This document shows positions 7,473-38,977 of a DNA stretch of 64,000 nucleotides, in pieces. The notes beneath the pieces are model-generated. The model searched no databases. It was not told the DNA's origin and worked only from the letters and a program-made list of their open reading frames with translations. The position numbers and the translations under genes were made by a program. Numbering within the stretch: the first letter of the stretch is position 1; each line of letters opens with the position of its first letter. This stretch comes from a virus (taxonomy: Duplodnaviria; Caudoviricetes): IMG/VR virus record IMGVR_UViG_3300031994_000065, positions 1-64,000 of that record; one strand, written 5' to 3'.

Positions 7473-7473
7473 C

Positions 7474-24372: not shown

Positions 24373-24442
24373 GGGAAAAAGAATCCGCACCGCATTTGTT
24401 GAATGCGGCGTCCGATACCGTAATACGGCGCGGACTCTTTTT
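24373..24442 (-). terminator. Three-way-junction 3' element/terminator (copy A)
   Basis: Outer stem AAGAGUCCGC/GCGGAUUCUU encloses two hairpins, then UUUUU; homologous to 33363-33426. Confidence 0.7.
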
Positions 24443-24446
24443 GGTT

Positions 24447-24875
24447 TTAAGCTTCGACGAGATTGATGTGGATCAATTTTTGCGAATTGTTGAAATCGTC
24501 AATCATTTTTTCAAAGCGGGTTTTAACAACCGGTTTTTCGACGAGTTCGAAATACCAGCGTTCGAAACCGTTGTCGATTGACGGGGTCGCATAAAACGCG
24601 TTGAGTTTCTCGATCGCTGTTTCCAGCGAATCAACGCGCATGTCAACGACCGGTCCCAAAGCCGCTTTGGACAGTGTTACCTGTCCTTTGCTTTTCCAGA
24701 GAGGGTTGACGCTGAAGTAACGCGCTTTTCTCGTGGCGAAGCAGGGGAACCAGTTGCCGTTGTCGTTTTCCGCAATGATTGCAACATCGAGTTGTTTGGC
24801 TTTGTTGTCGTGCAGGTCGACAAAACCATTCAACATTGCGAACGTTGCGATTGCGATTGCCGAAGTCTTTTCCAT
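24447..24875 (-). CDS. Early cassette cargo A, hypothetical protein
   Basis: ATG at 24875 spaced from AAGGAGG; flanked by a conserved leader and 3' element. Confidence 0.7.
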   Translation of the reverse strand: MEKTSAIAIATFAMLNGFVDLHDNKAKQLDVAIIAENDNGNWFPCFATRKARYFSVNPLWKSKGQVTLSKAALGPVVDMRVDSLETAIEKLNAFYATPSIDNGFERWYFELVEKPVVKTRFEKMIDDFNNSQKLIHINLVEA

Positions 24876-24879
24876 GATA

Positions 24880-24993
24880 AACATCCTCCTTAAAGATGTG
24901 GATCGTAGGTTTTCGTCAATTTAGTACAAGAGAACTCCTACTAAACTCTCATACACCACGATAATATATATTCATAGGTGGGGGCGATGTCAG
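24880..24993 (-). promoter_or_regulatory. Early promoter (CTGACA-N17-TATATATTAT) plus structured leader, copy A
   Basis: Near-identical to 33163-33275 and 34004-34117. Confidence 0.85.
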
Positions 24994-25042
24994 ATCGGAA
25001 AATTAGGTATATTGCTATAATACATGAAAAAGATAGATAACA

Positions 25043-25066
25043 AAGGAGGGAACTAAACCCCTCCTT
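25043..25066 (-). terminator. Terminator hairpin
   Basis: aaggaggg / ccctcctt inverted repeat at the end of the nuclease gene. Confidence 0.6.
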
Positions 25067-26195
25067 AAAATAATGATTTTTTCGAACGTGCAGAATATTG
25101 ATTCAGTTCGACGACATTAATTGGACTCATCTCGAAATATTTAGAATTCAGATTTTTCAATGCGTCATTCTCATACTTATCCACAAGCTGTTTCGTTATG
25201 TTGAGTTGTTGCGGTTCTGAGACCATGCCAAGTTGTCTGTCTAAATCGACGCACATGATACTGTTAGCAATTCGCTCTTTGTTATCATCATTAGGACCGT
25301 CTTTGATTGCCATTATAAGGTGTTCTAATCCAATTATTTCAGCTTCACTTATATCCAGCTCTTTGAACAATTTGTGTAATCTCTTGTATATGGTTTTCCA
25401 TCCACAACCTTTGATCTTTCCGATACCGCGACGTTTATCTCCAACTATGGCAAGAATGAAAGTAATCAGGTATGCAGGAAGTTTGTGTGAATTCTTTATA
25501 TCGTGTTTCTCTCTGATGATGGTAAAAAGATTCTCTTTGGTTACTATGTAACTTTCGTCACCTTTTGGATACATAACCAAGAAGTTCTTGTTGACGTATT
25601 GCAAATCGTATTCGTCTCTGGTTATCAAAATATTCAATTGACCATCGAGTGCTTTAGAGTTGCATAACAACAGAGGAACGAGAGAACTTTCGAGTCTATT
25701 TGATGTTACCAAATATACACCTTCCACATAACCCACTATGGTTCTGAGAGCTTTGATGACAGACTCCAGAACCATATTAGTTGCCTCGTAGTTTGGATTG
25801 TCGGTGTAATCGTAAATGAATCTCTCGCGATAGTGTTTAAGAAACATCGTATTATTCAGTGTCGTGTATTTATCGTATTCATTCATGAATAGAACGATAT
25901 TAGTCTTGATTCTGTTTTTGGTAAAGAATCGACGATAATGCCCGGCAAGATTCAGAATGTTACTGATAATGGAAAAATGAAAGTTCTTGGTTTCAGTTTT
26001 ATCCATAGAAAGAATGAATTCTTCTACGGTTTGGTTATGTATGCAATGAATAATTGATTCGAGATTGATGAATATATTTACTCGATCTATTACTTCTCTA
26101 ATACCAACAGAACCAAATAGAAGATTCATTTTTTCGAACTTAATCTTGTGAGCATTGAATATCTTATCAATCGTTTCAGATGAACTTGAAATCAT
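25065..26195 (-). CDS. RNase H / 5'-3' flap exonuclease (T4 RNase H-like)
   Basis: NIFINLESII N-terminal PIN-like motif, ITRDEYDLQY, and helix-3-turn-helix GDKRRGIGKIKGCGWKT. Confidence 0.7.
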   Translation of the reverse strand: MISSSSETIDKIFNAHKIKFEKMNLLFGSVGIREVIDRVNIFINLESIIHCIHNQTVEEFILSMDKTETKNFHFSIISNILNLAGHYRRFFTKNRIKTNIVLFMNEYDKYTTLNNTMFLKHYRERFIYDYTDNPNYEATNMVLESVIKALRTIVGYVEGVYLVTSNRLESSLVPLLLCNSKALDGQLNILITRDEYDLQYVNKNFLVMYPKGDESYIVTKENLFTIIREKHDIKNSHKLPAYLITFILAIVGDKRRGIGKIKGCGWKTIYKRLHKLFKELDISEAEIIGLEHLIMAIKDGPNDDNKERIANSIMCVDLDRQLGMVSEPQQLNITKQLVDKYENDALKNLNSKYFEMSPINVVELNQYSARSKKSLF

Positions 26196-26270
26196 TTCAA
26201 TCCCTTCTTCAGATAAAAAATATTGGGCGGGAAAGGTTCCCGCCCTTAACGTGTGTTTCCTTGTCAGATT

Positions 26271-27158
26271 TTATTTCGTCGTGATGTGTTCGATGATTTC
26301 GCGGATGTCACTGCCGCCATTGCCGAGTTCGCGCAAACGTGCGACTCGGTACATCACATTGCTGCCTTGCTGAGCTGTATCGAGCAGAATGACACGGTAA
26401 GCTCTGTTGTGCAAGAACAGCGCACTCAGAACGGCGTCCGGGTTGAGTTCGATATAGCAAAATGCTCTGCCGTTTTTGTCGCGTTTCTGAGACTCGTTCA
26501 CTACGAGTTTGCTCGTATCGACAAACGGTTTGACAAGCTCTTTCAATTTTGCATCCAAACGAACGTGTGCGCCACGCGCTTTGCCGCCGAGCAATTCGAG
26601 TTCGATGTCGTTAGCCGAGCGACCATTCACGACAAGATGTTCCATCTTCGGAAAGATGAGATACATCTTGGGAATGTCGTTCAGTACTGCAGCGCCATCC
26701 CCGAAATAGATGTAGCGGTAACCGTGATGCTCGAAGTATTTTTCGAAATACGTCGAAATGTCGCGACTCGTGAACGTGAAGATCGACCCACTGGGATCGA
26801 GTCCGAGACGATTGTCGTTCGCGCGGTTCCCAATGACACATCCGCCTTCGTAGTTATACAAACCATTCGGATCGCTCACGTCGGATTGTGGACGAGTGAA
26901 AGGTTTACCACCTCCGTCTTTCGGACGTTGCGGTTGCGGATTCGGCTGACGCTGTTCGCGCTGTTGTTGACGCGGTTGATGTACTTGCTGCTTGGGTTTC
27001 GGAGTAGGTTCAGGTTTAACCACCGGCTCTGCCTCCTCTTCTTTTTCGAATTCGTCGTTGTCTTCAAACGGATCGGGCAATTTGCTCGCTGCCGATTTGA
27101 CCGTGCTTTCTTCGCCGACTGCACGGTACAAGCGAATTTCCTCGCTGCTTACTTCCAT
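26271..27158 (-). CDS. Hypothetical early protein
   Basis: 295 aa, RBS AAGGAGG, early motif at 27203-27212, own terminator at 26226-26246; P/Q-rich linker. Confidence 0.7.
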   Translation of the reverse strand: MEVSSEEIRLYRAVGEESTVKSAASKLPDPFEDNDEFEKEEEAEPVVKPEPTPKPKQQVHQPRQQQREQRQPNPQPQRPKDGGGKPFTRPQSDVSDPNGLYNYEGGCVIGNRANDNRLGLDPSGSIFTFTSRDISTYFEKYFEHHGYRYIYFGDGAAVLNDIPKMYLIFPKMEHLVVNGRSANDIELELLGGKARGAHVRLDAKLKELVKPFVDTSKLVVNESQKRDKNGRAFCYIELNPDAVLSALFLHNRAYRVILLDTAQQGSNVMYRVARLRELGNGGSDIREIIEHITTK

Positions 27159-27202
27159 GAGTAATGCGCCTCCTTCTTTAATTTGTGGTCGTAACCGAGT
27201 TT

Positions 27203-27212
27203 ATAATATATA
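27203..27212 (-). promoter_or_regulatory. Early promoter motif TATATATTAT
   Basis: Exact motif ~45 nt upstream of the start codon. Confidence 0.65.
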
Positions 27213-27287
27213 CTTAGAAATCGCGTTAAAATACAGCCACTCCTATAGTTAGTTGTGACTGCATTTATAATAGATTAGCGATTCCTT

Positions 27288-28334
27288 TTATCTGTTGACT
27301 TTTGCAAAATTTCTTTCCATAAGTGACCTAACTTGCGGAGCCCAGTTATAGTTATCCGGGCAGTAGACGGGGTTGATCGAACTGACCGTATCTAAGCCGC
27401 GTGCAAAATAACACTCATTGATAAGTTGCCCGAATGCATCGATATTTTCTTTTTTCGAGCTGTAACTTAATCCCATCATTCCGAAAAGGTTATTATCATT
27501 CAACGCCATAAATGAAGTCCCATGACCGCTTTCGAGTTGTGCAACAGCCAAAGCAAATACGGCATTGACTCCGTATGTGGATTCCATTTCGTAGAACACA
27601 TGACCTAACCCTTCGAGACCGGTTCCGGCAACAATCGATTCCAGTTCATCCATACTCAATCCACATCGTTCGGTTATTACGTCTGAAAGCGGATAAACCG
27701 GTGGAATAAGGTTGACTCTGTAATGTTCGATTTTGCCACTGCTAAGAAACGGTTTGACGTGTTCATAGTAATACGAACTGGGATAGTAATCGACTTTAAC
27801 GAATCGTTTTTCAATATATGCTGCTTCGCCGATGCAATAGAAGTTGCTGTTGTAGATTAACGGAACAATCTCGTATGTATTGTACTTGTCTAATTGTATC
27901 GGTTTGTCGTCTTCAGCAGGCTGTTTGTAACATATCGCGTCGAGTTCGTTTCGAGTGAATAACACGCCGACGATTTTTTCTGTCGAAGGCTTCTCAAATT
28001 TGTCAAGTTCGCAGTACGCTCTGTATTCGCCAGCTACTCCCCATTGTGGATTAATGGGGCTGACCGAGATAGCAGTACCACTAGGAAGCGTGCCAATGAG
28101 TCGAGCCGAAGAATCGGGTTCGGCATACATCGGAACATCTTGTGTAGAGACGCAAACCAAGTCTGCAAATTTGTCTATTTCTACAAGGGGTTCCGCTTCC
28201 GCAACGTTTGTCTGAACAATCTGTTCATCTGTCGCCGGATTGACTCGAGGATTGAAGAAGTTGTGATTGATTCCGGCTCCAATCAGCATCGCACCAGTTA
28301 CACAGATCGCCGCGATTAGATGTTTAGTATACAT
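27288..28334 (-). CDS. Glucosaminidase-family (GH73) peptidoglycan hydrolase with N-terminal signal/anchor and SH3 domain
   Basis: GLGHVFYEMESTYGVNAVFALAVAQLESGHGTS...NNLFG catalytic motif; VPMYAEPDSSARLIGTLPSG is SH3-like; hydrophobic N-terminus. Confidence 0.85.
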   Translation of the reverse strand: MYTKHLIAAICVTGAMLIGAGINHNFFNPRVNPATDEQIVQTNVAEAEPLVEIDKFADLVCVSTQDVPMYAEPDSSARLIGTLPSGTAISVSPINPQWGVAGEYRAYCELDKFEKPSTEKIVGVLFTRNELDAICYKQPAEDDKPIQLDKYNTYEIVPLIYNSNFYCIGEAAYIEKRFVKVDYYPSSYYYEHVKPFLSSGKIEHYRVNLIPPVYPLSDVITERCGLSMDELESIVAGTGLEGLGHVFYEMESTYGVNAVFALAVAQLESGHGTSFMALNDNNLFGMMGLSYSSKKENIDAFGQLINECYFARGLDTVSSINPVYCPDNYNWAPQVRSLMERNFAKVNR

Positions 28335-28362
28335 TAGTGGATTCCTCCTTTGAGATTGAGTT

Positions 28363-28374
28363 TACCACTATGTC
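28363..28374 (-). promoter_or_regulatory. Late promoter RACA-N6-TA
   Basis: Minus strand GACA-tagtgg-TA. Confidence 0.7.
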
Positions 28375-28537
28375 CGCAGCTTTTAGGAAATAACCGTATC
28401 TTATTTTGCTTAAATCAAGCAATATTTGAGTTACACCAAACCAATTATTAAAATTTCATTAAAAATGTACTGGTCAAGATATATACATCGAATCATTGCG
28501 TGTATTCTGATGTGAATATCGGCTGATTTGGGCTGAA

Positions 28538-28549
28538 GACAAAGCGATA
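28538..28549 (+). promoter_or_regulatory. Late promoter RACA-N6-TA
   Basis: GACA-aagcga-TA. Confidence 0.7.
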
Positions 28550-28577
28550 ATACACTACACAGAAAGAAGGTGAAGAA

Positions 28578-29888
28578 ATGGGTCAATTATTACGAGGACA
28601 GATGTTCGGAACAGGTTTTGAGAAGCAAATTTATCATGATAATCATTCTGAGTTCGAGCAGAAAGTCCATAGCCAGTATGCGAAATATCTCAGTGAACTT
28701 CCAATATTCACTGAATACTTTCACATAGTTAAAGCATTAACTACGGAAGATACCGGTTTGTTAAACATTGATAAATTGACTGGAGACAGCTCACCGTTCA
28801 GATACAATCTCATTAAAGATTTTCCTCTGTTTGGTCTCGAGCAGATTCTTCTCGATATCGAAGATAATGATGATGTTGGTTTACAGACAAACTACGAGGG
28901 TGAGGCAATAATTCTTCCACAAACTATAACTCCGTTACCGGATGATGCATTTATTGCAACAGCTCTTGGAAAGAAATGGTTTTTCCGTGTAATCGAAATT
29001 CATTACGACACAATTCTTGCGAAGAACTATTACAAGATTAATTTTGTGGTAAAAGGTGTCGATAATGGTTATTATTACGAGGATTATCTTAAGAAGGTAA
29101 ACGACACATTCATTTGCGTTTACGACAATTATGGAACACAAGACGCATTTCTCATAAAGGAAGAGAATTATGATATTACTAATAAGCTCCAGAAAATGGC
29201 AGATGAATTATCAAGGAAATATCTCACTTTCTTCTATAATGAGAAATATAATGCGTTGATGGTTAAGAATCCACATGGTTACAATATGCTGTATGATGCT
29301 TATGTGAATTACTTCTGTAATGAGCAATCGATATTTGCTCAGAATCCAAGAAACTTTTGGAATTATAAGTTCTATGTAGAAACCAGACCGGAATTTGAGT
29401 TCTTCTATAACGCAAACTCAATTCAATCGGTTGTCATTAACAAAGATTTGGAATTGATTCAATCACCAAGATTTATGCGGTATTATGATACTATTCCCAC
29501 TTTCACCGATTCAATATTCCAGTTCTATGGAGATTTTGACACTTCCGGAATAACGATAAGTGAACGACATATAAATCCATTTGGTAGACAGATTCATCCG
29601 TTAATACCTCAAGATTTGTTTGAAGCAATCTGCTCTAATGGAAACGTTGATACCACAAATTTGATCTACAATGTCTTGGTGAAATACATCAATAATGATA
29701 TTGAAAGTGTAGGAAAACTTTTAGGTAATTTCAATGACAAAATTCGCGTTAGACCCACATACTTGGATTATGTCTTGATACCTCTATTCCTGTACATTCT
29801 TTATCAATACAAGAAGTCTGTTACCAAGACAAACAATAATTATGTTGAGAATGAACAGCTTCGACAAAAACTTAAAATCTCACACTGA
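28578..29888 (+). CDS. Virion structural protein, probably neck/head-closure
   Basis: SPFRYNLIKDFPLFG...EGEAIILPQTITPLPDDAF...FRVIEI is a beta-rich motif recalled from phiKZ-like virion proteins; late promoter. Confidence 0.5.
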   Translation: MGQLLRGQMFGTGFEKQIYHDNHSEFEQKVHSQYAKYLSELPIFTEYFHIVKALTTEDTGLLNIDKLTGDSSPFRYNLIKDFPLFGLEQILLDIEDNDDVGLQTNYEGEAIILPQTITPLPDDAFIATALGKKWFFRVIEIHYDTILAKNYYKINFVVKGVDNGYYYEDYLKKVNDTFICVYDNYGTQDAFLIKEENYDITNKLQKMADELSRKYLTFFYNEKYNALMVKNPHGYNMLYDAYVNYFCNEQSIFAQNPRNFWNYKFYVETRPEFEFFYNANSIQSVVINKDLELIQSPRFMRYYDTIPTFTDSIFQFYGDFDTSGITISERHINPFGRQIHPLIPQDLFEAICSNGNVDTTNLIYNVLVKYINNDIESVGKLLGNFNDKIRVRPTYLDYVLIPLFLYILYQYKKSVTKTNNNYVENEQLRQKLKISH

Positions 29889-29891
29889 AGA

Positions 29892-30233
29892 ATGGAGGAA
29901 TTTGAGATGCTTAAGACATTACGTTCACAATTGGCAACTAAAAAGGCAGATGCTTCGTTTGAAGGATTTGTCCTTGATGCTATTGAACGCGCACCTCAGA
30001 GAGATATCATGCTCGAAGAATGCGATGCTCCGGAATGTTGGCATGAAGACGACGATTACTGCGATGAAGATATTGGCAAGTTGATCGATGCTCTTCCCGA
30101 ATCCGACATCGATTTGGATAATGAAGCGATTATTCAAGGAATTATTCGTGGTCGCGACGAACAGGGTAACGAGAAAGATATGTCAGTGGAAGAATGTTGC
30201 GAGGCGTATATACCGCCCACTGAAGAAGTTTAA
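29892..30233 (+). CDS. Small acidic protein, probably virion
   Basis: 113 aa, co-transcribed; contains FEG and MLEE motifs like the head proteins. Confidence 0.55.
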   Translation: MEEFEMLKTLRSQLATKKADASFEGFVLDAIERAPQRDIMLEECDAPECWHEDDDYCDEDIGKLIDALPESDIDLDNEAIIQGIIRGRDEQGNEKDMSVEECCEAYIPPTEEV

Positions 30234-30239
30234 GAAAGG

Positions 30240-30758
30240 ATGAAACTAATGGAAACTGATATGACTACATTCGTAGACAAGAAACTTGTAAAAGTTACAG
30301 ATCGTGGTCCGATTATGCCGCTCGGTGGAATCTATGGACCCACTCTTCCTCAGATTATGACCGTTAAAACGATTGCGATTCTCTTGCAAAAGGGTTATCA
30401 CGTTACGGAAATTCTGAATAATAAGTCTGAAGTTAAACTCAGTCTTTCGAACTACAATGTCGACATCAATGGCGATGGTGGTGAAGGTCTTAAAAAGGTT
30501 AAGAAACCTGATGAAGATATTAAGCCTCTGCCGAAGAAAAATGCCAAAGTCGAAACTCCTGCGCCTGAAGCAAAAACTGAAAAACCTGCTGAAAAAGAAT
30601 CGGTTAAAGTTGAGACTGCCGTCGTTGAGAATAAGATTACCGTATCAGCGGCTGGAGGTAAGGCTGAAGCCGATTCTAAAAGGAATGGTAATGACGCTGG
30701 AGGTCTTATGAGTACCAAAAAAAATAAGCCTAAGGCGGACGAACTTACCTCTAAGTAA
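30240..30758 (+). CDS. Hypothetical protein with K/E/P-rich tail
   Basis: 172-aa ORF ending before a terminator. Confidence 0.6.
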   Translation: MKLMETDMTTFVDKKLVKVTDRGPIMPLGGIYGPTLPQIMTVKTIAILLQKGYHVTEILNNKSEVKLSLSNYNVDINGDGGEGLKKVKKPDEDIKPLPKKNAKVETPAPEAKTEKPAEKESVKVETAVVENKITVSAAGGKAEADSKRNGNDAGGLMSTKKNKPKADELTSK

Positions 30759-30777
30759 TTTGGGATTAAAACGAGAA

Positions 30778-30822
30778 AAAAAAACCGGGGAGCAATCTGA
30801 TAGAATTTGCTCCCCGGTTTAA
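30778..30822. terminator. Bidirectional terminator
   Basis: aaaccggggagcaa / ttgctccccggttt stem, with an A-run on the left. Confidence 0.85.
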
Positions 30823-30847
30823 CCGTTTTTTGAACTGCTGCTACTGA

Positions 30848-31027
30848 TTAGCGGCGAGTTCCACAAGTGCTATTGTCACCCATGGTCGTCACCTCCTTTC
30901 AGTAACAGGAGGGTGGTTTTACGTTTCATTTACCTCCCCCCACATTTATTAGATTTAAGTCGCAGCTACTAATTTCACTGCGTCTTATACCTATATAATA
31001 TATATTTTCGATTCTAAGATATGTCTA
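30848..31027 (-). other. Small early transcription unit carrying only two micro-ORFs (30876-30929, 17 aa; 30848-30883, 11 aa)
   Basis: TAGACA-N17-TATATATTAT at 31027-30995; RBS GGGGGAGG and AAAGGAGGTG; terminator at 30778-30822. Confidence 0.5.
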
Positions 31028-32414: not shown

Positions 32415-32431
32415 CGTTTATCACCTCTTTT

Positions 32432-32443
32432 TAGTGCTTTGTC
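32432..32443 (-). promoter_or_regulatory. Late promoter RACA-N6-TA
   Basis: Minus strand GACA-aagcac-TA. Confidence 0.7.
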
Positions 32444-32510
32444 GCGAGGGGTAAAAATAGGTGAAATTCGGAGAAAAAAAAACCACGCGGTTTTGCGTGG
32501 CTGAATTGTT

Positions 32511-33158
32511 TCAATATGCGAAAGTCATAGGAATACCCATGTCTTTCAACATGTTGAAACAGCTGATGAAACCTTCTCTTGGTTTGAGATACTCAAACCG
32601 AAAGAAGACTTTCCAATTTTCGCCGTAGCGTTTCTTGTAAACTTTTTCCGCTTCTCCGGATTCGAAATTCGTGACGTAGTTTTCGTACGCCTTTTTCGAA
32701 ATCCAGAACCCCACGATTTTTTGCGGAGCGACAAACGCCTCGGTGTAGGCGCTGTATTCGTCGTCGAGTTTTTCATAGTCGTCAACGATGAACTCCTCAC
32801 GAATTGATGGGTAACGCTTCCCATCAATCGTGTAGCTCCCGCAATCAACGGAGGCCATTAACGACGTTTCGCCTTTCACATAAACGCCTATTACGCCGAG
32901 TCCTCCGTTCATGAGCCTAGATTCAGGCCCGGGTTTCGAGCAACTTATCTCGGCTCCGGTGCCAAGAATGGTCAACAGTTTTTCGAGTGCGACCGCAGGC
33001 GACTGCGATCTGTTGACAGCGTTGAGGCCGTGCGCCCAGACCACTCCGTCAGTTCCTCTCGGAACATGACGTGATTTGAGCGCCTTAGCGTTTTCGAACG
33101 CCTTTCTCTCCTCGTCGTTCAAATCATCTGATTTCACACCATTGACGTAAATGCTCAT
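32511..33158 (-). CDS. Early cassette cargo B, hypothetical protein
   Basis: ATG at 33158 spaced from AAGGAGG; terminator at ~32474-32502. Confidence 0.7.
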   Translation of the reverse strand: MSIYVNGVKSDDLNDEERKAFENAKALKSRHVPRGTDGVVWAHGLNAVNRSQSPAVALEKLLTILGTGAEISCSKPGPESRLMNGGLGVIGVYVKGETSLMASVDCGSYTIDGKRYPSIREEFIVDDYEKLDDEYSAYTEAFVAPQKIVGFWISKKAYENYVTNFESGEAEKVYKKRYGENWKVFFRFEYLKPREGFISCFNMLKDMGIPMTFAY

Positions 33159-33162
33159 TTCA

Positions 33163-33275
33163 AACATCCTCCTTAAAGATGTGGATCGTAGGTTTTCGCA
33201 ATTTAGTACAAGAGAACTCCTACTAAACTCCTATACACCACGATAATATATACTTATGGGAGAGGGTAATGTCGG
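33163..33275 (-). promoter_or_regulatory. Early promoter (CCGACA-N17-TATATATTAT) plus structured leader, copy B
   Basis: Leader differs from copies A and C by a few bases. Confidence 0.85.
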
Positions 33276-33292
33276 AACGTAAAAAGGAGAAA

Positions 33293-33330
33293 AAGCCAGA
33301 ACCTATTAAGGTTCTGGCTTTGTCACGCTT
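33293..33330 (-). repeat. Terminator-like hairpin duplicated at 34338-34374
   Basis: aagccagaacc-N6/N5-ggttctggctttgtcacgctt occurs at both sites. Confidence 0.85.
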
Positions 33331-33362
33331 CTTGTTGTGGGAGGTAAAAAATATCTCCTTGA

Positions 33363-33426
33363 GGGAAAAAGAATCTGTGCCGCAAATGTGTGCGGTGTCT
33401 GTGCCGATTTACGACACAGATTCTTT
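33363..33426 (-). terminator. Three-way-junction 3' element/terminator (copy C)
   Basis: Homolog of 24373-24442 with compensatory CGC/GCG to UGU/ACA changes. Confidence 0.7.
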
Positions 33427-33432
33427 CGTGAA

Positions 33433-33999
33433 TCATTTCCAGCCTTTTGCGCAGATAACCTTCGGAATATATTTCCAATACTGCACCGATTGCGCGCAGG
33501 TGTAAAGACGTATTGTCTTGTCAGCCCAACACACAAGCTTTCCATTGTTATATGGAAGTAGTATTGTTTCATATAAACTGATAGTGTTTTTGTCGCGTTT
33601 GAAACTGCGCCCGTTGAAATGGAAGTCTTGATGGCTACCATTACAACAAGAGATGAGTGTGTACTCTCCCTTGTCGAATTTGTTCGCCATCGAGAAATGA
33701 TTTTCTTTCTTGCCTTCGATAATGAATTCTGCGAATCCTCCGTGAACGCAAGCAACCAGCCCCTGATCTGTTACTAACGGGACTGCTTCCATCTGGACGG
33801 CGAACCTTTTCAAGAATGACCATATGGTCAATTTCTTTCCAGTATCCGCGTATCTCACATCGGTGTACAACGACGCAGTTCCGTTTTTGACTTTGAAGTA
33901 CGCGATAACGTACATCGCGCCGAACAGAATTGCCCCTCCTGTGAGACCCCAAATGACGTTAATAACGGAGACGATCGAATTTACCAGAGCGTTTTTCAT
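33433..33999 (-). CDS. Early cassette cargo C, membrane-anchored hypothetical protein
   Basis: N-terminal TM segment (VINVIWGLTGGAILFGAMYVIAYF); ATG at 33999. Confidence 0.7.
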   Translation of the reverse strand: MKNALVNSIVSVINVIWGLTGGAILFGAMYVIAYFKVKNGTASLYTDVRYADTGKKLTIWSFLKRFAVQMEAVPLVTDQGLVACVHGGFAEFIIEGKKENHFSMANKFDKGEYTLISCCNGSHQDFHFNGRSFKRDKNTISLYETILLPYNNGKLVCWADKTIRLYTCAQSVQYWKYIPKVICAKGWK

Positions 34000-34003
34000 T
34001 TCA

Positions 34004-34117
34004 AACATCCTCCTTAAAGATGTGGATCGTAGGTTTTCGTCAATTTAGTACAAGAGAACTCCTACTAAACTCTCATACACCACGATAATATATACTTAGG
34101 AGGGTGGGCGATGTCAG
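34004..34117 (-). promoter_or_regulatory. Early promoter (CTGACA-N17-TATATATTAT) plus structured leader, copy C
   Basis: Leader is identical to copy A. Confidence 0.85.
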
Positions 34118-34138
34118 ATTGAAAAATTATATCGTGTC

Positions 34139-34150
34139 AACATATCATTA
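34139..34150 (+). promoter_or_regulatory. Late promoter with no downstream CDS
   Basis: AACA-tatcat-TA pointing into the structured region. Confidence 0.6.
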
Positions 34151-34328
34151 GATGCATCTATAATACTAATGTGCGGGCAATAGCTCCACTTTAAGGGAAG
34201 ATAGGTTATTGGTGACAAACGCCTAAGTTGTACTCGGCTTATATAGTAGACTTCGGATTAACCCGCCTCGAAGTCGCCGCGTAACAGAATTGGCGGCTAG
34301 GCCTATCTTCCTGGGAGTCGTTTTTTTT
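34150..34328 (+). ncRNA. Candidate ~180-nt multi-branched non-coding RNA, family unknown
   Basis: GGAAGAUAGG (34196-34205) pairs perfectly with CCUAUCUUCC (34302-34311) and closes four hairpins; U8 at 34321-34328; G-U pairs favour the + strand; no ORF. Confidence 0.65.
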
Positions 34329-34385
34329 GCGGACAATAAGCCAGAACCTTGTAGGTTCTGGCTTTGTCACGCTTTTTGTAGTTTG

Positions 34386-36671
34386 TCAGATTGAAATCAT
34401 CGGTACGGTTTTGTGATGCCACGATTCGTGTTCTTTGCGTTTGCAGTGTGGGCATTCGTTTTTTATAATACCGGTATAACCACAGACCGGGTCGCGGTCG
34501 ACAGGGTGGTTCACACTGAAATATCCCATATTTGCATCGTGCATGGCTCGTACAAGTTTTTCAAAAGCTTCTACATTTTGGAGAGGATCCCCATTGTACT
34601 CAATATAGCTTATCGCGCCAGCATCACATTTTTCATGGTATGGTGCTTCGATACGAATTTTATCGATAGCTCGTATCTTATAATACACAGGAACATGGAA
34701 ACTGTTCGTGATGTACAATCTATCGGTGACACCACGTATGATTCCATAATCTTTGCGATTCGCTTTTTGAAATGTATTTGCTGTCCCTTCGGCTGGAGTT
34801 GAAAAGGTTGACCAATTCATTTTTTCTTCAACTTTAAACTTGTCGGTTTTGTCACGAAGATGTTGGACGATTTCCAATCCGAACCGTTGCGAATCCTCAT
34901 TCTCTCCATGATGTTTTCCTGTTAATGCTATTAAAGTTTCTGCAAGACCACAGAATCCAATAGAAAGGGTAGCATTTTTCAAAACTTTTCGTATAGTATC
35001 ATTTGGCGATAATTCATCGCTTCCCATCCAAACGCCTTGACCCATCAAAAACGGAAAATTGAAAACGTGTTTATCTGCAATAATTTGAAAACGGTAAAGA
35101 AGATAATCGTGACTAAGTTGAATATAGTGATCGTATATCTCGTAGAAACGTTTTATGATCTCTTCTTGTGGTGCGTTGTTTCCAAGTTGACGTTTTGCTT
35201 CGAGTGCAAATTTTGGAAGATTAAGAGTCACAAAACTAAAATTTCCTCTTCCACCAGTTTCTTCAGGTCCATTCACATTTCCGATAACACGGGTACGGCA
35301 TCCCATCGTTGCAGCGTATGTATTATAATTTCCTGGTTTATAATACTTCAAGTTAAAAGTGGCATCACACGATACAAAGTTCGGGTACAACCTCTTAGCA
35401 CTCACTTCACATGCACGCTTAAATAAGTCGTAATTTGGATCGCCTGGGTTGAAATTGATTCCTGATTTAATCTGAAAAATCGAAATTGGAAATAGTGGAG
35501 ATTCTCCCTTTCCCATTCCAGCATCAATAGCGTTGAGAGTTTCTCTTATTGCCAATCGTCCCTCTGGAGAAGTATCCATACCAAAGTTGATAGAACTGAA
35601 CGGAACTTGCCCGCCTGACCTAGCGTGTAAGCTATTAAAATTATACACCATTGCTTCCATAGCTTGACGTGTCTCTTCTTCAGTGGCATCTTTTGCTATT
35701 TCATAAATTGAATGAAGACCATCCCATTCGTTTCGCTCGACTTCCATGAAAACTTTACAGAAAACTCTCCATATTTCTTCTATGGTTTCCCAATAATCAC
35801 TAGAATTCTTAATGTCTTTATCTTCGACGTAATGTATCTTTGTTCTATCGAATTCTTCTTTGACTTCTTTACTAACCGTGTGCTTGTCGTACATGTTCGA
35901 TGTCACAAATTGTCCAAATTCAACCGTTTTAGATATAATTTCTTTCACGAATGTTTTTCTGATCCCTTCAGCCATCGCATAATCTTCTGCATTTAGTGAC
36001 TGGCCTCCGAAACAGTCGTTCTGGTCTGATTGAATTGCCACACATGCTAAAGCTGCATATGATCGAATAGAGCCTGGTTCTCTTATATGACCATGACCTG
36101 TTGAAAACCCACCGTGAAACAGTTTCAGTAGATCAATTTGACAACAATTCAACGTTATCATTGAGAAATCGTTATCGTGTTCATGAATGAAATGTTGACG
36201 ATGTGCTTCAGCAAATTCTTTTGGTTGGGTATTAAGCGCGAATTCTTTTGCTCCATCTGATCCAAGTTTAAGCATTATGCCCATTGGACCATCAGTGTTA
36301 ATATTTGCATTTTCCCTCTTATCGTCCATCGCTGAGGCATCAGTAAACAAAATGTCTTTATAAGTTTGCATGAGATTCTTCTTCGATTCCCGACGAAGCA
36401 TATGTTTATATCTGTAACAAATATACTTCTTGGCTATCTCGAAAAATCCGTGTTGCATAAGACGACGTTCCACGACATCTTGAATATCTTCGACTGATAT
36501 TTCAGTACGATCACCAATATCGGACTCTATCTGTTCAATGATATTCTCAAGATCGCGTTCGGTCATTTGTTCGACGGAAGCGTTGTTAGCTCCAACAATC
36601 GCTTTGTAAATTTTCGATCGGTCGTATGAAACCAACGAACCGTCGCGTTTGATAACGCGTTCAAGATTCAT
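34386..36671 (-). CDS. nrdD: Anaerobic (class III) ribonucleoside-triphosphate reductase with ATP cone, lacking the C-terminal glycyl-radical segment
   Basis: VIKRDG ATP cone, TLNCCQID, ARSGGQVPFSSINFG, MGCRTR, GNFSFVTLNL, STPAEG, C-terminal CxxC pair; no RITGY-type motif. Confidence 0.93.
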   Translation of the reverse strand: MNLERVIKRDGSLVSYDRSKIYKAIVGANNASVEQMTERDLENIIEQIESDIGDRTEISVEDIQDVVERRLMQHGFFEIAKKYICYRYKHMLRRESKKNLMQTYKDILFTDASAMDDKRENANINTDGPMGIMLKLGSDGAKEFALNTQPKEFAEAHRQHFIHEHDNDFSMITLNCCQIDLLKLFHGGFSTGHGHIREPGSIRSYAALACVAIQSDQNDCFGGQSLNAEDYAMAEGIRKTFVKEIISKTVEFGQFVTSNMYDKHTVSKEVKEEFDRTKIHYVEDKDIKNSSDYWETIEEIWRVFCKVFMEVERNEWDGLHSIYEIAKDATEEETRQAMEAMVYNFNSLHARSGGQVPFSSINFGMDTSPEGRLAIRETLNAIDAGMGKGESPLFPISIFQIKSGINFNPGDPNYDLFKRACEVSAKRLYPNFVSCDATFNLKYYKPGNYNTYAATMGCRTRVIGNVNGPEETGGRGNFSFVTLNLPKFALEAKRQLGNNAPQEEIIKRFYEIYDHYIQLSHDYLLYRFQIIADKHVFNFPFLMGQGVWMGSDELSPNDTIRKVLKNATLSIGFCGLAETLIALTGKHHGENEDSQRFGLEIVQHLRDKTDKFKVEEKMNWSTFSTPAEGTANTFQKANRKDYGIIRGVTDRLYITNSFHVPVYYKIRAIDKIRIEAPYHEKCDAGAISYIEYNGDPLQNVEAFEKLVRAMHDANMGYFSVNHPVDRDPVCGYTGIIKNECPHCKRKEHESWHHKTVPMISI

Positions 36672-36743
36672 AAGCGTTACCTCCTTTGAATTAGTTTAAG
36701 GGTAAGTTGAGGAAGAGATTCGAATCTCTTCCTCATTTTGAGT

Positions 36744-37346
36744 TTATTTGTAATTCTTTCTGAATTCTGGGAGATACCAAAGAGCTTTTCCTCTGAGAAC
36801 GTCTCCACCGCGAGAACCGTCTATTGCATGAGGATTAAACTTTGGGGATTCTGAAGTTTCAAGATATTCCAAATCCCAGCGTTCACAAGTTGATTTCGGT
36901 CCATATTGTTCATGACACCACAAACCATCTTCATTATCTGCAGCTTCTCCATGTGTCATTACATGACCTGGATTGATTGTGAGCCATAATCCTTCAGCTA
37001 CTGCACAAACAGCCAAAGCCATACTTTCAATCTGTGCAGCGGTTGGAGGATTCGGACCTAAGTCTTTGGTATCCGCATATACCGCACAACATATTGTGAT
37101 GTTGATAGCTCCACTGTTACGTTTGTATGTTCCGGCGATAACATCAGCAAAATTATCTGTACTGGCATAATATTTGCCATTCTTATCGATATTGATATGG
37201 TAGTCGTCAGACTTATTATCGTACCAACCAGCAGTCCAGTGGAGATAAATCTTTGGTTCTCTACCAAGTGCTTTTGCTTTATCCCAAACTTCTTCTCGGG
37301 CAGCAGAAGCGAGTTGATAGATTTCTTTAAGTGTAACTTCACGCAT
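36744..37346 (-). CDS. N-acetylmuramoyl-L-alanine amidase (Amidase_2 type), candidate endolysin
   Basis: IYLHWTAG...DYHINID...VMTHGEAA Zn-binding motifs; late promoter at 37364-37375. Confidence 0.85.
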   Translation of the reverse strand: MREVTLKEIYQLASAAREEVWDKAKALGREPKIYLHWTAGWYDNKSDDYHINIDKNGKYYASTDNFADVIAGTYKRNSGAINITICCAVYADTKDLGPNPPTAAQIESMALAVCAVAEGLWLTINPGHVMTHGEAADNEDGLWCHEQYGPKSTCERWDLEYLETSESPKFNPHAIDGSRGGDVLRGKALWYLPEFRKNYK

Positions 37347-37363
37347 TTTCGTTCACCTACCTT

Positions 37364-37375
37364 TATGAGATTGTC
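37364..37375 (-). promoter_or_regulatory. Late promoter RACA-N6-TA
   Basis: Minus strand GACA-atctca-TA. Confidence 0.7.
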
Positions 37376-37441
37376 TTGAATATTAAGAGGTTAGAAATGA
37401 AAAAAAAATCTCGCCCATATGAGCGAGACCGCAGCGGAGCG

Positions 37442-37930
37442 TTATTGCTCCAAGAGTTCATTGAGATAAACGACATCTTCAAACGAAAGATTGTTTTCCT
37501 TGATTATGGCGCGAGCCCAGTTGATGTAGCCGCCGAAGCAATACTGATCGTCAAAATAGTAGCGAATACCGTTGATGTCGACATACTCGCATTCTATTTC
37601 ATCATCGAGCGTTTTGAACCATTGGCTTCCGACACTGATGCGGTTGGCGCGTTCGATCCGGGTAGGATTCGTTGCTCCATTGCAAATTATTTCGGCCGCC
37701 TGTTTCGGTGTTACGATGTCAACATCAAAGATGCCAACCTCGTGCCAATCATCGCTCACAACAGCATACTTTTTGTAATATGCCGTGCTGATGTAGTAAT
37801 GCGGATGACTATGGCACTCATGGAAGTTCGGGCACCGGGATCCGATGCACTCACCATCGAAATCCTCTGGTTCAGTGCATTGAAAGTTGAGTATTTGACC
37901 CAGCTCGTATCCGAAATCGTCTGTGGTCAT
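37442..37930 (-). CDS. Early cassette cargo D, acidic Cys/His-rich hypothetical protein
   Basis: RBS AAGGAGGG; terminator at 37399-37428; N-terminal Cys/His cluster. Confidence 0.7.
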   Translation of the reverse strand: MTTDDFGYELGQILNFQCTEPEDFDGECIGSRCPNFHECHSHPHYYISTAYYKKYAVVSDDWHEVGIFDVDIVTPKQAAEIICNGATNPTRIERANRISVGSQWFKTLDDEIECEYVDINGIRYYFDDQYCFGGYINWARAIIKENNLSFEDVVYLNELLEQ

Positions 37931-37932
37931 TC

Positions 37933-38039
37933 CAAATCCCTCCTTAAGGGATCGTAGGTTTTTTCATCTTAGTAGTGAGCTGCCTACTTAACTCTTCTAC
38001 GCGTATATAATATATAAATGTGGGTGGGGGTGATGTCGG
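37933..38039 (-). promoter_or_regulatory. Early promoter (CCGACA-N17-TATATATTAT) plus type-2 structured leader, copy D
   Basis: Identical to copy E from ggatcgtagg to the promoter. Confidence 0.85.
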
Positions 38040-38040
38040 A

Positions 38041-38245
38041 TTGAAATTAAACCCTTCTTAAAAAAGGTAATTCGATTCCGATGATGAATCATATAAGGAG
38101 GCAAACATCATGAAATTTGGTGGTATTACACTTGGTGGTCGGAACATTATCGTACCAACCAGCAGTCCAGTGGAGATAAATCTTTGGTTCTCTACTAAAT
38201 GCTTTTGCTTTACCCCATACTTCTTCTCGGGTATTGCGAGGTTGG
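38041..38245 (+). pseudogene. Chimeric duplication relic: 5' end of the 38978 gene fused to an amidase-gene fragment
   Basis: 38041-38151 matches 38906-39031 and 38146-38231 matches 37215-37300; joined at ATTATC microhomology. Confidence 0.85.
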
Positions 38246-38304
38246 AAAACAAAAAAAAATCACGCCCGTATAATGAGCGTGACCGGTGAGCGTGACGTGA
38301 CCAG

Positions 38305-38790
38305 TTAGAAGAACCATCCCATTTTGCGGGCGGTTTCGCGGAAACGTTCCCAATTTTCGTCGCGGATCGTTGATACCGCTTTGTCTTTGACGCTTTCTAC
38401 AATCGCATCGTAGACATCGCAGTCCCACTTATCGGGCAACTTGATCTCATCGTCCCAATCCCAGTTCTCAATAAATGTGATCTGGTTGCGGCGGATGATG
38501 TCATCATGGCCTGATTCCGGCGGAAAGATCTCGTAGTACTCATCGTACATTTCGTCGAGCTTCGACGAGCTGTAATAGTCGAGATGATACGTCGAAACGA
38601 ACGCCTTCACGTCCATCTCATCTGAGATGAGCGCTTGGAAATCATCGAGATAATCCGAATGGACCGTCTCGAAAAACTCCCAGTTTTTCGCATAACGTTG
38701 ATCGTATGGGAGCACTTTCTTGACCATCTTGTCCTTGAGAGAGTCAAGAAGCGCCCTTTCTCTCACGTCGAGGTCGCTGTACTTAATCAC
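38305..38790 (-). CDS. Early cassette cargo E, acidic hypothetical protein
   Basis: GTG start after TAAGGAG; D/E/W/Y-rich 161 aa; terminator at 38251-38283. Confidence 0.7.
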   Translation of the reverse strand: MIKYSDLDVRERALLDSLKDKMVKKVLPYDQRYAKNWEFFETVHSDYLDDFQALISDEMDVKAFVSTYHLDYYSSSKLDEMYDEYYEIFPPESGHDDIIRRNQITFIENWDWDDEIKLPDKWDCDVYDAIVESVKDKAVSTIRDENWERFRETARKMGWFF

Positions 38791-38794
38791 TCTA

Positions 38795-38904
38795 CCATCT
38801 CCTTACGAGGCGAGGATCGTAGGTTTTTTCATCTTAGTAGTGAGCTGCCTACTTAACTCTTCTACGCGTATATAATATATAAATGTGGGTGGGGGTGATG
38901 TCGG
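38795..38904 (-). promoter_or_regulatory. Early promoter plus type-2 structured leader, copy E
   Basis: Identical core to copy D. Confidence 0.85.
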
Positions 38905-38924
38905 ATTGAAATTAAACCTCTCTT

Positions 38925-38936
38925 AACAAGAAGGTA
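38925..38936 (+). promoter_or_regulatory. Late promoter RACA-N6-TA
   Basis: AACA-agaagg-TA; degraded in the duplicated copy near 38059. Confidence 0.7.
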
Positions 38937-38977
38937 ATCCGATTCTAATGATGAATCATATAAGGAGGCAAAACATC

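What the first reader, a model, noticed from the sequence alone, without database searches (positions are those of the whole stretch)
24880..38870. Leader RNA with pseudoknot potential and a hairpin-occluded Shine-Dalgarno
Type 1 (A/B/C): GAGUU-UAGUAGG-AGUUC...UACUAA...AAAACCUACGAUCC. Type 2 (D/E): GAGUU-AAGUAGGC-AGCUC...UACUAA...AAAAAACCUACGAUCC. A 5-bp stem is kept (G-U versus G-C). Its loop AGUAGG can pair with UACU or with CCUAC after an A-tract, as in H-type pseudoknots. The SD is then paired with UAAGG looped out, using different sequences: ACAUCUU/AGGAUGU, AUCCCU/AGGGAU and a weaker CUC/GAG. I do not recognise a known riboswitch. Options are a ligand or protein switch, or a roadblock against the Firmicute 5'-3' exonuclease RNase J.
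Basis: partly seen in the sequence, partly recalled or inferred. Interest (0 to 1): 0.8.

Follow-up and report, generated by a model that had tools for sequence, protein, structure and literature searches.

The report
Jumbo-phage early promoter-leader cassette
An uncultured AR9-like giant phage starts at least nine unrelated small genes with the same unit: its own early promoter fused to a folded RNA leader of about 75 bases. The leader is real and matches no Rfam family, but it looks like a message-protecting, translation-tuning module, not a riboswitch.

Summary
All five copies exist as described, on the minus strand, each ending at a start codon. The leader is only part of a larger unit. 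Each copy has a C-rich upstream box, then TATATATTAT-N6-G, which matches the published virion-RNA-polymerase early promoter of phage AR9, then the leader.

That promoter puts the predicted +1 on the first base of a longer 5'-terminal hairpin (GUA..GAG / CUC..UAC).

- **SD hairpin:** well supported. It occurs in four different sequence versions, and 5 of 8 pairs change on both sides.
- **5' hairpin and GUAGG:CCUAC pseudoknot:** both fit every copy, but their bases barely vary, so they are not proven.
- **Chance:** the loop-to-tail match alone is not beyond chance.
- **Rfam:** no match.

Four more copies lie in a contig that probably belongs to the same phage. None were found elsewhere in IMG/VR or the JGI metagenomes. 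The nine downstream proteins are unrelated orphans, and the five in the window each have their own terminator.

Best reading: a shuffled early-gene expression cassette (PeSL-like) whose leader shields the 5' end and tunes ribosome access. A riboswitch is very unlikely. This scan has noted similar cassettes in other jumbo phages.

The parts
24971..25001 (-). Copy A: C-rich upstream box (..TCYGACATCRCCCCCACC..)
   Evidence: Alignment of the five copies; sequence
24961..24970 (-). Copy A: TATATATTAT early-promoter motif; N6 at 24955-24960; predicted +1 G at 24954
   Evidence: AR9 consensus AAATATATATTAT-(6N)-G+1 in PMC5312081
24900..24954 (-). Copy A: 55-nt conserved leader core. P1 hairpin 24924-24954; loop GUAGG 24937-24941; tail CCUAC 24905-24909; invariant AAACCUACGAUCC 24900-24912
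24881..24899 (-). Copy A: SD hairpin ACAUCUUU-AAG-GAGGAUGU (8 bp)
24447..24875 (-). Copy A cargo ORF (142 aa, orphan). The true start is the second ATG, 9 nt after the SD
33253..33283 (-). Copy B: upstream box
33243..33252 (-). Copy B: TATATATTAT; predicted +1 at 33236
33183..33236 (-). Copy B: leader core (54 nt). P1 5' arm reads GUAUAGGAG instead of GUAUGAGAG; both pair with CUCUUGUAC
33164..33182 (-). Copy B: SD hairpin (same sequence as A)
32511..33158 (-). Copy B cargo ORF (215 aa, orphan)
34095..34125 (-). Copy C: upstream box
34085..34094 (-). Copy C: TATATATTAT; predicted +1 at 34078
34024..34078 (-). Copy C: leader core (identical to A)
34005..34023 (-). Copy C: SD hairpin (same sequence as A)
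33433..33999 (-). Copy C cargo ORF (188 aa, hydrophobic N-terminal stretch, orphan)
38017..38047 (-). Copy D: upstream box
38007..38016 (-). Copy D: TATATATTAT; predicted +1 at 38000
37949..38000 (-). Copy D: type 2 leader core (52 nt). P1 = GUAG/CUAC plus GAGUU/AGCUC with an AA/A internal loop
37935..37953 (-). Copy D: SD hairpin GAUCCCUU-AAG-GAGGGAUU. Its 5' arm is the invariant GAUCC itself
37442..37930 (-). Copy D cargo ORF (162 aa, Cys/His-rich, orphan)
38882..38912 (-). Copy E: upstream box
38872..38881 (-). Copy E: TATATATTAT; predicted +1 at 38865
38814..38865 (-). Copy E: type 2 leader core (identical to D)
38791..38813 (-). Copy E: SD region with no compact hairpin. In the MFE fold, CUAC and AUC..UC of the conserved tail pair across the SD with GAGAU and GUAG just before the GUG start
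38305..38790 (-). Copy E cargo ORF (161 aa, GTG start, orphan)

Best explanation
The five elements are copies of a self-contained early-gene expression cassette of an AR9/PBS1-like jumbo phage. The window copies run: upstream box, virion-RNA-polymerase early promoter (TATATATTAT-N6-G+1), 5' UTR of about 65-80 nt, orphan ORF, own terminator.

The UTR acts after transcription.
- Its first 29-31 nt fold into a hairpin that starts at +1. The hairpin loop GUAGG may additionally pair with the invariant CCUAC behind an A-rich linker, giving an H-type pseudoknot. This buries the 5' end from 5'-end-dependent decay, which in Firmicutes means RppH, RNase J1 and RNase Y.
- A short hairpin (-5 to -8 kcal/mol) holds the SD. 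It is weaker than SD:anti-SD pairing, so it tunes ribosome loading instead of blocking it.

The shared unit puts a set of orphan early genes under one expression regime. It also serves as a homology patch for shuffling them.

Shown: the repeats, the promoter motif and its genome-wide use, unrelated cargo, terminators after the five window genes, SD-hairpin covariation.
Inferred: the transcription start, the 5' hairpin and pseudoknot, the stabilising role, and the host type.
For: Phage type:
- Structural and RNAP beta' proteins hit AR9, PBS1, BpSp, LPJP1 and S6 at 26-37% identity.

Promoter:
- The AR9 early consensus AAATATATATTAT-(6N)-G+1 was mapped by dRNA-seq and primer extension (PMC5312081).
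- Here there are 30 TATATATTAT motifs in the three contig pieces, 27 followed by N6-G. The reversed-pattern control gives 0.
- Every motif inspected except one lies upstream of an SD and a start codon.

Leader:
- The predicted +1 is the first base of P1 in all copies.
- P1 plus PK pairs 94% of cells, against 28-56% in slid controls.
- GA/AG swaps in the P1 5' arm both pair with UU.
- On my own realignment, pair 4 changes from U-G (type 1) to G-C (types 2 and 3).
- All indels fall in loops.
- GUAGG:CCUAC is the only helix RNAalifold keeps for all copies.
- A rough pseudoknot energy of -8.4 to -11.5 kcal/mol beats the nested MFE in 3 of 5 variants.

SD hairpin:
- Four sequence versions; 5 of 8 pairs change on both sides; score 0.833 against 0.457, reached by 1 of 500 shuffles.
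- Background is 2 of 59 genes with 7 bp or more.

Same architecture with unrelated sequence:
- 5 of 21 other early leaders have a strong hairpin at +1.
- Two of those also have an SD hairpin.

Cargo and cassette behaviour:
- The window cargo proteins are unrelated to each other, and none of the nine has a Pfam family.
- Each window gene has its own terminator.
- Duplication scars lie between D and E.
- A contig breakpoint lies 63 nt after a cassette gene.

Known biology:
Against: - No transcription start has been mapped for this phage.
- Only 5 distinct core sequences exist, probably all in one genome. P1 and PK bases are almost invariant, and the tool alignment shows 0 double-sided changes.
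- The loop-tail match is not beyond chance (P 0.03-0.33).
- Whole-leader folding z-scores are modest, -0.7 to -2.1.
- In type 1 the nested MFE is a different helix (AGUUUAGUA/UACUAAAUU, -11.7 to -13.6 kcal/mol). It leaves the first 7 nt single-stranded.
- A purely structural roadblock does not explain why the 13-nt AAACCUACGAUCC and AGUAGG are invariant while the stems drift.
- AR9 itself has short, unstructured early leaders, so the feature is not required by this promoter type.
- The host is unknown.
Confidence: 0.5

Rival explanations
1. The leader is an operator for a trans-acting phage or host factor. Candidates are a translational repressor (RegA or gp32 style) or an endoribonuclease that targets early messages (RegB style). 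The factor would read the invariant AGUAGG loop and the AAACCUACGAUCC tail, or the knot they form, to switch off or time a regulon of orphan early genes.
For: - Strict sequence invariance of AGUAGG and the 13-nt tail across three leader types whose stems and linkers differ. This is more than a roadblock needs.
- One leader sits in front of nine unrelated genes, which is regulon logic.
- The SD is presented in a small hairpin next to the invariant tail.
- T4 precedents for all three mechanisms (PMC3014915).
Against: - No candidate binding protein was identified.
- With two deep lineages, a 13-nt invariant run is only marginally unexpected (my estimate, about 0.07-0.5).
- Invariance can come from recent copying.
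- There is no comparative data from other phages.
Confidence: 0.2
2. There is no RNA-level function beyond a promoter and an SD. The leader is conserved only because the cassette was copied recently and is homogenised by gene conversion. Its biological role is at the DNA level, as a homology patch for modular shuffling (PeSL-like).
For: - Neighbouring copies are identical (D = E, and the two type 3 copies) or nearly identical (B and C); all copies are probably in one genome.
- Sharp similarity borders at about -50 and at the start codon.
- Duplication scars and a breakpoint at unit edges.
- No double-sided covariation in P1 or PK.
Against: - The SD hairpin is rebuilt from four different sequences, which copying cannot explain.
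- Indels and substitutions between types avoid the paired segments.
- Unrelated early leaders of the same phage show the same two-hairpin layout.
Confidence: 0.2
3. The leader is a small-molecule riboswitch of the H-type pseudoknot kind (preQ1-I or SAM-II style). It would open or close the SD hairpin in response to a ligand.
For: - The architecture resembles small pseudoknot riboswitches: a hairpin, an A-rich tail, then a tail segment complementary to the loop, directly followed by an SD element.
- Alternative pairings exist.
Against: - No Rfam match, even at E up to 10.
- It controls nine unrelated orphan proteins with no metabolic theme.
- It was found in no other genome.
- The SD hairpin does not compete with the pseudoknot strands in 8 of 9 copies.
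Confidence: 0.03
4. The conserved bases downstream of the promoter are a DNA operator for a transcription regulator, or a polymerase pause or clearance signal. They would not be an RNA element.
For: - The segment lies at +1 to +55, where repressors of early promoters could bind.
- It contains inverted repeats (AGTA/TACT and GTAGG/CCTAC).
Against: - The spacing between half-sites varies between copies: 14-16 bp for AGTA/TACT and 29-32 bp for GTAGG/CCTAC (read). This is unlike a dimer operator and is typical of RNA loops.
- 21 other early promoters of the same phage lack it.
Confidence: 0.05

Closest known systems
AR9/PBS1 virion-RNAP early promoters (Lavysh et al. 2017, PMC5312081)
   Same: - The same core motif, TATATATTAT-(6N)-G, upstream of early genes.
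- The phage encodes AR9-clade split multisubunit RNAP.
- The motif is used about 30 times.
   Different: - AR9 early leaders are 20-60 nt, AT-rich and unstructured, with no shared element.
- Here 9 of about 30 promoters carry an extra upstream C-rich box and a conserved structured leader.
- The start site here is inferred, not mapped.
PeSL (promoter-early stem-loop) cassettes of T4-type phages (PMC2839356, PMC4122927)
   Same: - Short repeated regulatory cassettes containing an early promoter.
- They frame small orphan genes.
- They mark the edges of duplications and replacements.
   Different: - PeSLs are a host sigma70-type promoter plus a terminator stem-loop.
- Here the promoter is for a phage virion RNAP.
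- The conserved part is mostly a transcribed 5' UTR with an SD hairpin.
- Exchange between related phages could not be shown, because no relatives were found.
Firmicute 5' mRNA stabilisers (aprE, ermC and cryIIIA leaders; reviewed in PMC3997798)
   Same: A 5'-proximal stem-loop plus a strong SD near the 5' end. These are the two determinants known to block RNase J1 and other 5'-end-dependent decay.
   Different: - Those are single host genes with tested half-lives.
- Here the unit is phage-borne and repeated, has invariant non-stem sequence, and is untested.
T4 post-transcriptional operators: gene 32 leader pseudoknot, RegA operators, RegB GGAG sites (PMC3014915)
   Same: - Phage early or middle mRNAs are controlled through RNA elements at or just upstream of the SD.
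- The gene 32 operator begins with a 5' pseudoknot.
   Different: - Gene 32 is a single autoregulated gene.
- RegA and RegB sites are short and unstructured.
- No homologous protein or sequence was found here.
Small H-type pseudoknot riboswitches (preQ1-I, SAM-II, guanidine-III classes)
   Same: A hairpin, an A-rich linker and a loop-complementary tail next to an SD.
   Different: - No covariance-model match.
- No shared gene function.
- No phylogenetic spread.

Membership tests
AR9-type virion-RNAP early promoter | Extended AT-rich motif (AAA)TATATATTAT | tested here: met
   10 exact copies in the 81-kb record and 30 in the three contig pieces, against 0 for the reversed pattern. The AAA prefix is only partly kept.
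AR9-type virion-RNAP early promoter | G (transcription start) exactly 6 nt after the motif | tested here: met
   27 of 30 motifs have G at that position and the other 3 have A.
AR9-type virion-RNAP early promoter | The phage encodes AR9-clade multisubunit RNA polymerases | tested here: met
   ORF 43146-44732 matches phrog_2986 (E 5e-96) and the beta' fragments of BpSp, LPJP1, Goe21 and S6 at 35-37% identity. Only one subunit was checked.
AR9-type virion-RNAP early promoter | Early, protein-synthesis-independent transcription starting at that G | not testable with these tools
PeSL-type shuffling cassette | Repeated early promoter motif in front of small orphan genes | tested here: met
   Nine copies before nine proteins without Pfam families; the five window proteins are unrelated to each other.
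PeSL-type shuffling cassette | Promoter of host sigma70 type coupled to a terminator stem-loop within the repeat | tested here: not met
   The promoter is the phage virion-RNAP type. Terminators exist after each window gene but differ between units and lie outside the repeat.
PeSL-type shuffling cassette | Indels or replacements between related phages bounded by the repeats | tested here: inconclusive
   Duplication scars lie between D and E. G000 and G001 diverge 63 nt after a cassette gene. No independent relative was available.
Firmicute 5' stabiliser leader | Stem-loop within a few nt of the 5' end | tested here: inconclusive
   P1 starts at the predicted +1 in all copies and is the MFE in types 2 and R2. 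In type 1 a competing helix is more stable. The start site is not mapped.
Firmicute 5' stabiliser leader | Strong SD or ribosome binding close to the protecting element | tested here: met
   AAGGAGG-type SDs; predicted SD:anti-SD duplex of -11 to -14 kcal/mol (the anti-SD sequence was taken from memory).
Firmicute 5' stabiliser leader | Increases mRNA half-life in an RNase J1-dependent way | not testable with these tools
   Needs experiments.
Known riboswitch or cis-regulatory RNA family (Rfam 15) | Covariance-model match at or near the gathering score | tested here: not met
   0 hits at gathering in 64 kb. Only noise (E 2.6-9.9, bits far below cut-offs) on copies C and D.
Known riboswitch or cis-regulatory RNA family (Rfam 15) | Association with genes of one pathway | tested here: not met
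   Nine orphan proteins with no shared family.
H-type RNA pseudoknot | Two helices with crossing strands and sterically possible loops | tested here: met
   L1 2-4 nt, L2 1-4 nt, L3 13-14 nt (A-rich), for S1 of 8-9 bp and S2 of 5 bp.
H-type RNA pseudoknot | Covariation or probing support for the second helix | tested here: inconclusive
   All 5 pairs are invariant in all copies. Chance complementarity is P 0.03-0.33.

The most novel reading that the evidence does not exclude
The leader is a bistable RNA operator. The fold would alternate between a 5' hairpin plus GUAGG:CCUAC knot and the competing AGUAG:CUACU helix. A phage-encoded factor, or the infection state, would read it to time the translation or decay of a dedicated set of orphan early genes. 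Those genes could be the phage's host-takeover or counter-defence arsenal. This would be a virion-polymerase-linked post-transcriptional regulon with no described counterpart in AR9-like phages.
Probability: 0.15. Interest if true: 0.7.

Novelty: new variant of a known kind. Interest (0 to 1): 0.45.

Why it matters
Jumbo phages with their own virion RNA polymerase are thought to need only a short AT-rich promoter for early genes. Here a third of those promoters carry an added, structured leader in front of orphan genes. This points to a second, post-transcriptional layer of control over the earliest and least understood phage genes.

If the 5' hairpin or knot does stabilise messages, or a factor reads the invariant bases, the cassette would be useful in two ways:
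- as a handle for finding the phage's takeover or anti-defence genes;
- as a compact expression or stability module for Firmicutes.

The SD hairpin, rebuilt four times from different sequences, is a clean small example of selection on RNA structure within one genome.

Tried and rejected
**Rfam.** Nothing at gathering for the window, and nothing at E up to 10 on copies C and D.

**Search for relatives.**
- Four IMG/VR pattern scans and one JGI metagenome scan returned only two contigs, IMGVR_UViG_3300028805_000152 and 3300031994_000067, which are also Ga0247608_10000645 and Ga0310691_10000440.
- A promoter-plus-P1 pattern gave 49 other loci, none matching the model.
- The phage-database blastn with copy A gave no match.
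- A protein-based search for related phages in IMG/VR found none.
- The two contigs are not independent. One overlaps the end of the window's record at 100%. The other is 100% identical to it over 26.8 kb.

**uORF reading.** UUG or AUG at core position 36-38 opens a short frame through AAACCUACGAUCC. However, a 1-nt indel shifts the frame in A, C and R2 while the bases stay the same, and there is no SD. Rejected.

**AR9-type late promoter.** An AACA-N6-TA motif inside the box or leader is absent (read).

**16S complementarity.** Only GAUCC pairs with the 16S 3' end, and it lies on the wrong side of the SD. Rejected.

**DNA operator.** Half-site spacing varies. Rejected.

**AR9 leaders as homologues.** They are unstructured and unrelated.

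**Cargo function.** Nothing from Pfam, PHROGs or the ESM Atlas.

**Alternative helix in type 1.** AGUUUAGUA/UACUAAAUU is strong in type 1, but the type 2 and 3 changes at positions 12, 35 and 36 break it without compensation. It is unlikely to be the conserved fold.

Full report
**Observation**

The 12-mer GAGTTNAGTAGG occurs five times in the window, all on the minus strand, against 0.63 expected.
- type 1 in copies A (start codon at 24875), B (33158) and C (33999);
- type 2 in D (37930) and E (38790);
- the SD hairpins ACAUCUU/AGGAUGU, AUCCCU/AGGGAU and the weak CUC/GAG.

It begins about 50 nt further upstream with a C-rich box (..TCYGACATCRCCCCCACC..). It then runs through an invariant TATATATTAT and stops sharply at the start codon. 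The five downstream proteins share no similarity. They have no Pfam or PHROG family. Each is followed by its own terminator.

**What the phage is, and where the RNA starts**

The window is the first 64 kb of an 81-kb IMG/VR record that CheckV rates 32% complete.
- Its virion proteins, a GroEL-like gene and an RNAP beta' fragment find their best relatives, at 26-37% identity, in the AR9/PBS1 group of Firmicute jumbo phages: AR9, PBS1, BpSp, Listeria LPJP1 and Staphylococcus S6.
- For AR9, dRNA-seq and primer extension defined the virion-RNAP early promoter as AAATATATATTAT-(6N)-G+1 (PMC5312081).
- The present phage uses the same motif. There are 10 exact TATATATTAT in the 81-kb record and 30 in the three non-overlapping contig pieces. 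Of these, 27 are followed by N6-G, and the reversed pattern occurs 0 times.
- Every motif inspected except one lies upstream of an SD and a start codon, and those with an assignable start have leaders of 15-127 nt.

By this rule the cassette transcripts start at the G of GUAUGAGAG (type 1) or GUAGAAGAG (type 2). This start is inferred by homology, not mapped.

**How many copies, and where else**

A covariance model of the 55-nt core finds the five window copies and four more in IMGVR_UViG_3300031994_000067. Two of those four also occur in 3300028805_000152. Nothing else scores below E 0.3.

These contigs are not independent relatives.
- The first 127 nt of the 79-kb contig are identical to the last 127 nt of the window's record.
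- The 54-kb contig is 100% identical to the 79-kb contig over 26.8 kb.
- So the nine copies probably sit in one phage genome, or in near-identical strains.

IMG/VR and JGI-metagenome pattern scans, a promoter-plus-stem scan followed by the model, and a protein-based search for related phages gave no further carrier. The four extra cargo proteins (79-112 aa) are also without Pfam families.

There are five distinct core sequences in three types:
- type 1: A/C, B/R1, and R2, which has a 2-nt loop deletion;
- type 2: D/E;
- type 3: two adjacent copies.

**Structure of the core**

With +1 fixed, the first 29-31 nt can form a hairpin that begins at the first base.
- In type 1 it is GUAUGAGAG/CUCUUGUAC (9 bp).
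- In types 2 and 3 it is GUAG/CUAC plus GAGUU/AGCUC (type 2) or GAGU/ACUC (type 3), with an AA/A internal loop.
The R2 deletion breaks that register but not the long hairpin.

Points in favour of the hairpin:
- The GA-to-AG swap in B/R1 pairs with the same UU.
- Pair 4 is U-G in type 1 and G-C in types 2 and 3. I see this only on my own realignment; the tool alignment puts a gap there.
- All indels fall in loops.

The loop always contains GUAGG, and an invariant CCUAC follows an A-rich 13-14-nt linker.
- The loop lengths (L1 2-4, L2 1-4, L3 13-14 nt) allow an H-type pseudoknot.
- RNAalifold keeps only this helix as common to all copies.
- The formal count for hairpin plus knot is 94% of cells paired, against 28-56% in slid controls, but with no double-sided change. 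The structure was derived from these same sequences.
- A 5-bp loop-tail match arises in 3-33% of shuffles.
- With a Dirks-Pierce-type penalty (taken from memory), the knot comes out at -8.4 to -11.5 kcal/mol. That is better than the nested MFE in R2, D/E and type 3, and 1-2 kcal/mol worse in the other type 1 copies.

In type 1 a competing helix, AGUUUAGUA/UACUAAAUU, is the MFE. The type 2 and 3 substitutions break it without compensation. I therefore take it as a type 1 peculiarity or a possible alternative state.

Whole-leader z-scores are modest, -0.7 to -2.1. The 5' hairpin and the knot are consistent with the data but unproven.

**SD hairpin**

This is the best-supported part.
- Eight of nine copies place the SD in the 3' arm of a 7-8-bp hairpin with a 3-4-nt loop.
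- The hairpin is built from four different sequences:
  - ACAUCUUU/GAGGAUGU
  - GAUCCCUU/GAGGGAUU
  - UACCUUU/GGAGGUA
  - UCCGUUUU/AGGACGGA
- Five of its eight pairs change on both sides. The covariation score is 0.833, against 0.457 in shuffles (reached by 1 of 500) and 0.23-0.40 in slid controls.
- Only 2 of 59 other SD-bearing genes in the record have such a hairpin of 7 bp or more.
- The hairpins are weak, -5.1 to -8.4 kcal/mol, compared with about -11 to -14 for SD:anti-SD pairing. They should tune ribosome access, not block it.
- In copy E the compact hairpin is missing. Instead the conserved tail itself (CUAC and AUC..UC) pairs across the SD.

**Architecture recurs without sequence similarity**

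Among 21 other early leaders of the same phage, five have a strong hairpin at +1 or +2 (8-11 bp, z of -2.6 or lower). Two of these long leaders also have an SD hairpin of 8-10 bp. AR9's own early leaders are short and unstructured. So a hairpin at the very start of the message, combined with an SD hairpin, is a repeated solution in this phage.

What that mechanism does not explain is the strict invariance of AGUAGG and AAACCUACGAUCC. I keep a trans-acting factor reading these bases as the main rival. T4 RegA, RegB and gp32 are the precedents (PMC3014915).

**Rejected readings**

- **Riboswitch:** no Rfam match, nine unrelated orphan cargos, and no spread beyond one phage.
- **uORF:** a 1-nt indel changes the frame while the bases stay the same.
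- **DNA operator:** half-site spacings vary by 2-3 bp between copies.
- **Late promoter:** no AACA-N6-TA in the unit.

**Cassette behaviour**

- Neighbouring copies are identical or nearly so: D = E, the two type 3 copies are identical, and B and C are close.
- The interval between D and E holds a copy of E's upstream flank (38061-38138 matches 38928-39006). It also holds a fragment of the 5' end of the amidase gene (38146-38231 matches 37215-37300).
- The window's record and the 54-kb contig share 174 nt that end 63 nt after the stop of a 79-aa cassette gene, and then diverge.

This resembles the PeSL cassettes of T4-type phages (PMC2839356, PMC4122927). The differences are a phage-polymerase promoter and a transcribed leader in place of a sigma70 promoter plus terminator. 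Exchange between related phages could not be tested.

**Earlier notes of this scan**

Other first readers flagged the same stretch as a cassette system (e1-5847901, e1-5847913). Follow-up agents described comparable early promoter-leader cassettes, some with pseudoknot leaders, in other jumbo phages, including AR9-like ones (e1-5658273, e1-5650982, e1-5691009). I did not see their sequences. My pattern and model searches found no carrier of this particular leader elsewhere.

**Verdict**

The element is a real, repeated early-gene promoter-leader cassette, with a well-supported SD hairpin and a plausible but unproven 5' hairpin and pseudoknot. It is uncatalogued but confined to one phage lineage. 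It is a new variant of known kinds (phage regulatory cassettes and 5' stabiliser leaders), not a riboswitch.

Noticed in passing
window 34139-34328: An ORF-free stretch of about 190 nt with many hairpins lies between nrdD and cassette C. It includes a 10-bp stem GGAAGAUAGG/CCUAUCUUCC and has no Rfam hit.
   Followed up: no
window 24373-24446 and 33306-33432: The 3' ends of cassette genes A and C share a branched, terminator-like element. D and E share a different hairpin followed by U9. Each cassette gene is a monocistronic unit.
   Followed up: partly
window 38061-38231 (compare 38928-39006 and 37215-37300): The spacer between cassette D and gene E is a patchwork. It holds a copy of E's upstream flank with the start of the plus-strand gene, and an 86-nt fragment of the 5' end of the amidase gene 36744-37346. 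These are scars of a duplication or insertion at cassette edges.
   Followed up: partly
G000 81121-81294 = L397 (G001) 7408-7581 = L399 (G002) 1-127: The window's record ends inside a cassette unit. Its last 127 nt equal the start of the 79-kb contig. The 54-kb contig shares 174 nt and then diverges 63 nt after the stop of the 79-aa cassette gene. This is either an assembly break at a repeat or a strain rearrangement at a unit border.
   Followed up: partly
G001 promoters at 14910, 25431 and 26851 (minus strand; loci L368, L372): Three early leaders of unrelated sequence start with a strong hairpin at the predicted +1: a 10-bp stem with a GAAA loop (14910) and two hairpins in locus L372 (25431 and 26851). 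The 14910 leader and one of the two L372 leaders also hold the SD in an 8-10-bp hairpin. This is the same layout as the cassette leader.
   Followed up: partly
window 30900-31004 (minus strand): The early promoter at 30995 has A instead of G at +7. Its leader has a CGCAG/CUGCG hairpin whose loop contains AUUAGUAG, and a downstream CUAAU is complementary to the loop. This is the same loop-to-tail idea in another sequence.
   Followed up: no
window 39613-40401: A homing-endonuclease-like gene (phrog_15137, E 7e-51) lies next to the D/E cassette cluster.
   Followed up: no
window 18232-18416 and 19382-19471: There are in-frame tandem repeats (24-nt and 18-nt units, Gly/Asp-rich) inside two large plus-strand ORFs near the virion protein genes.
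   Followed up: no
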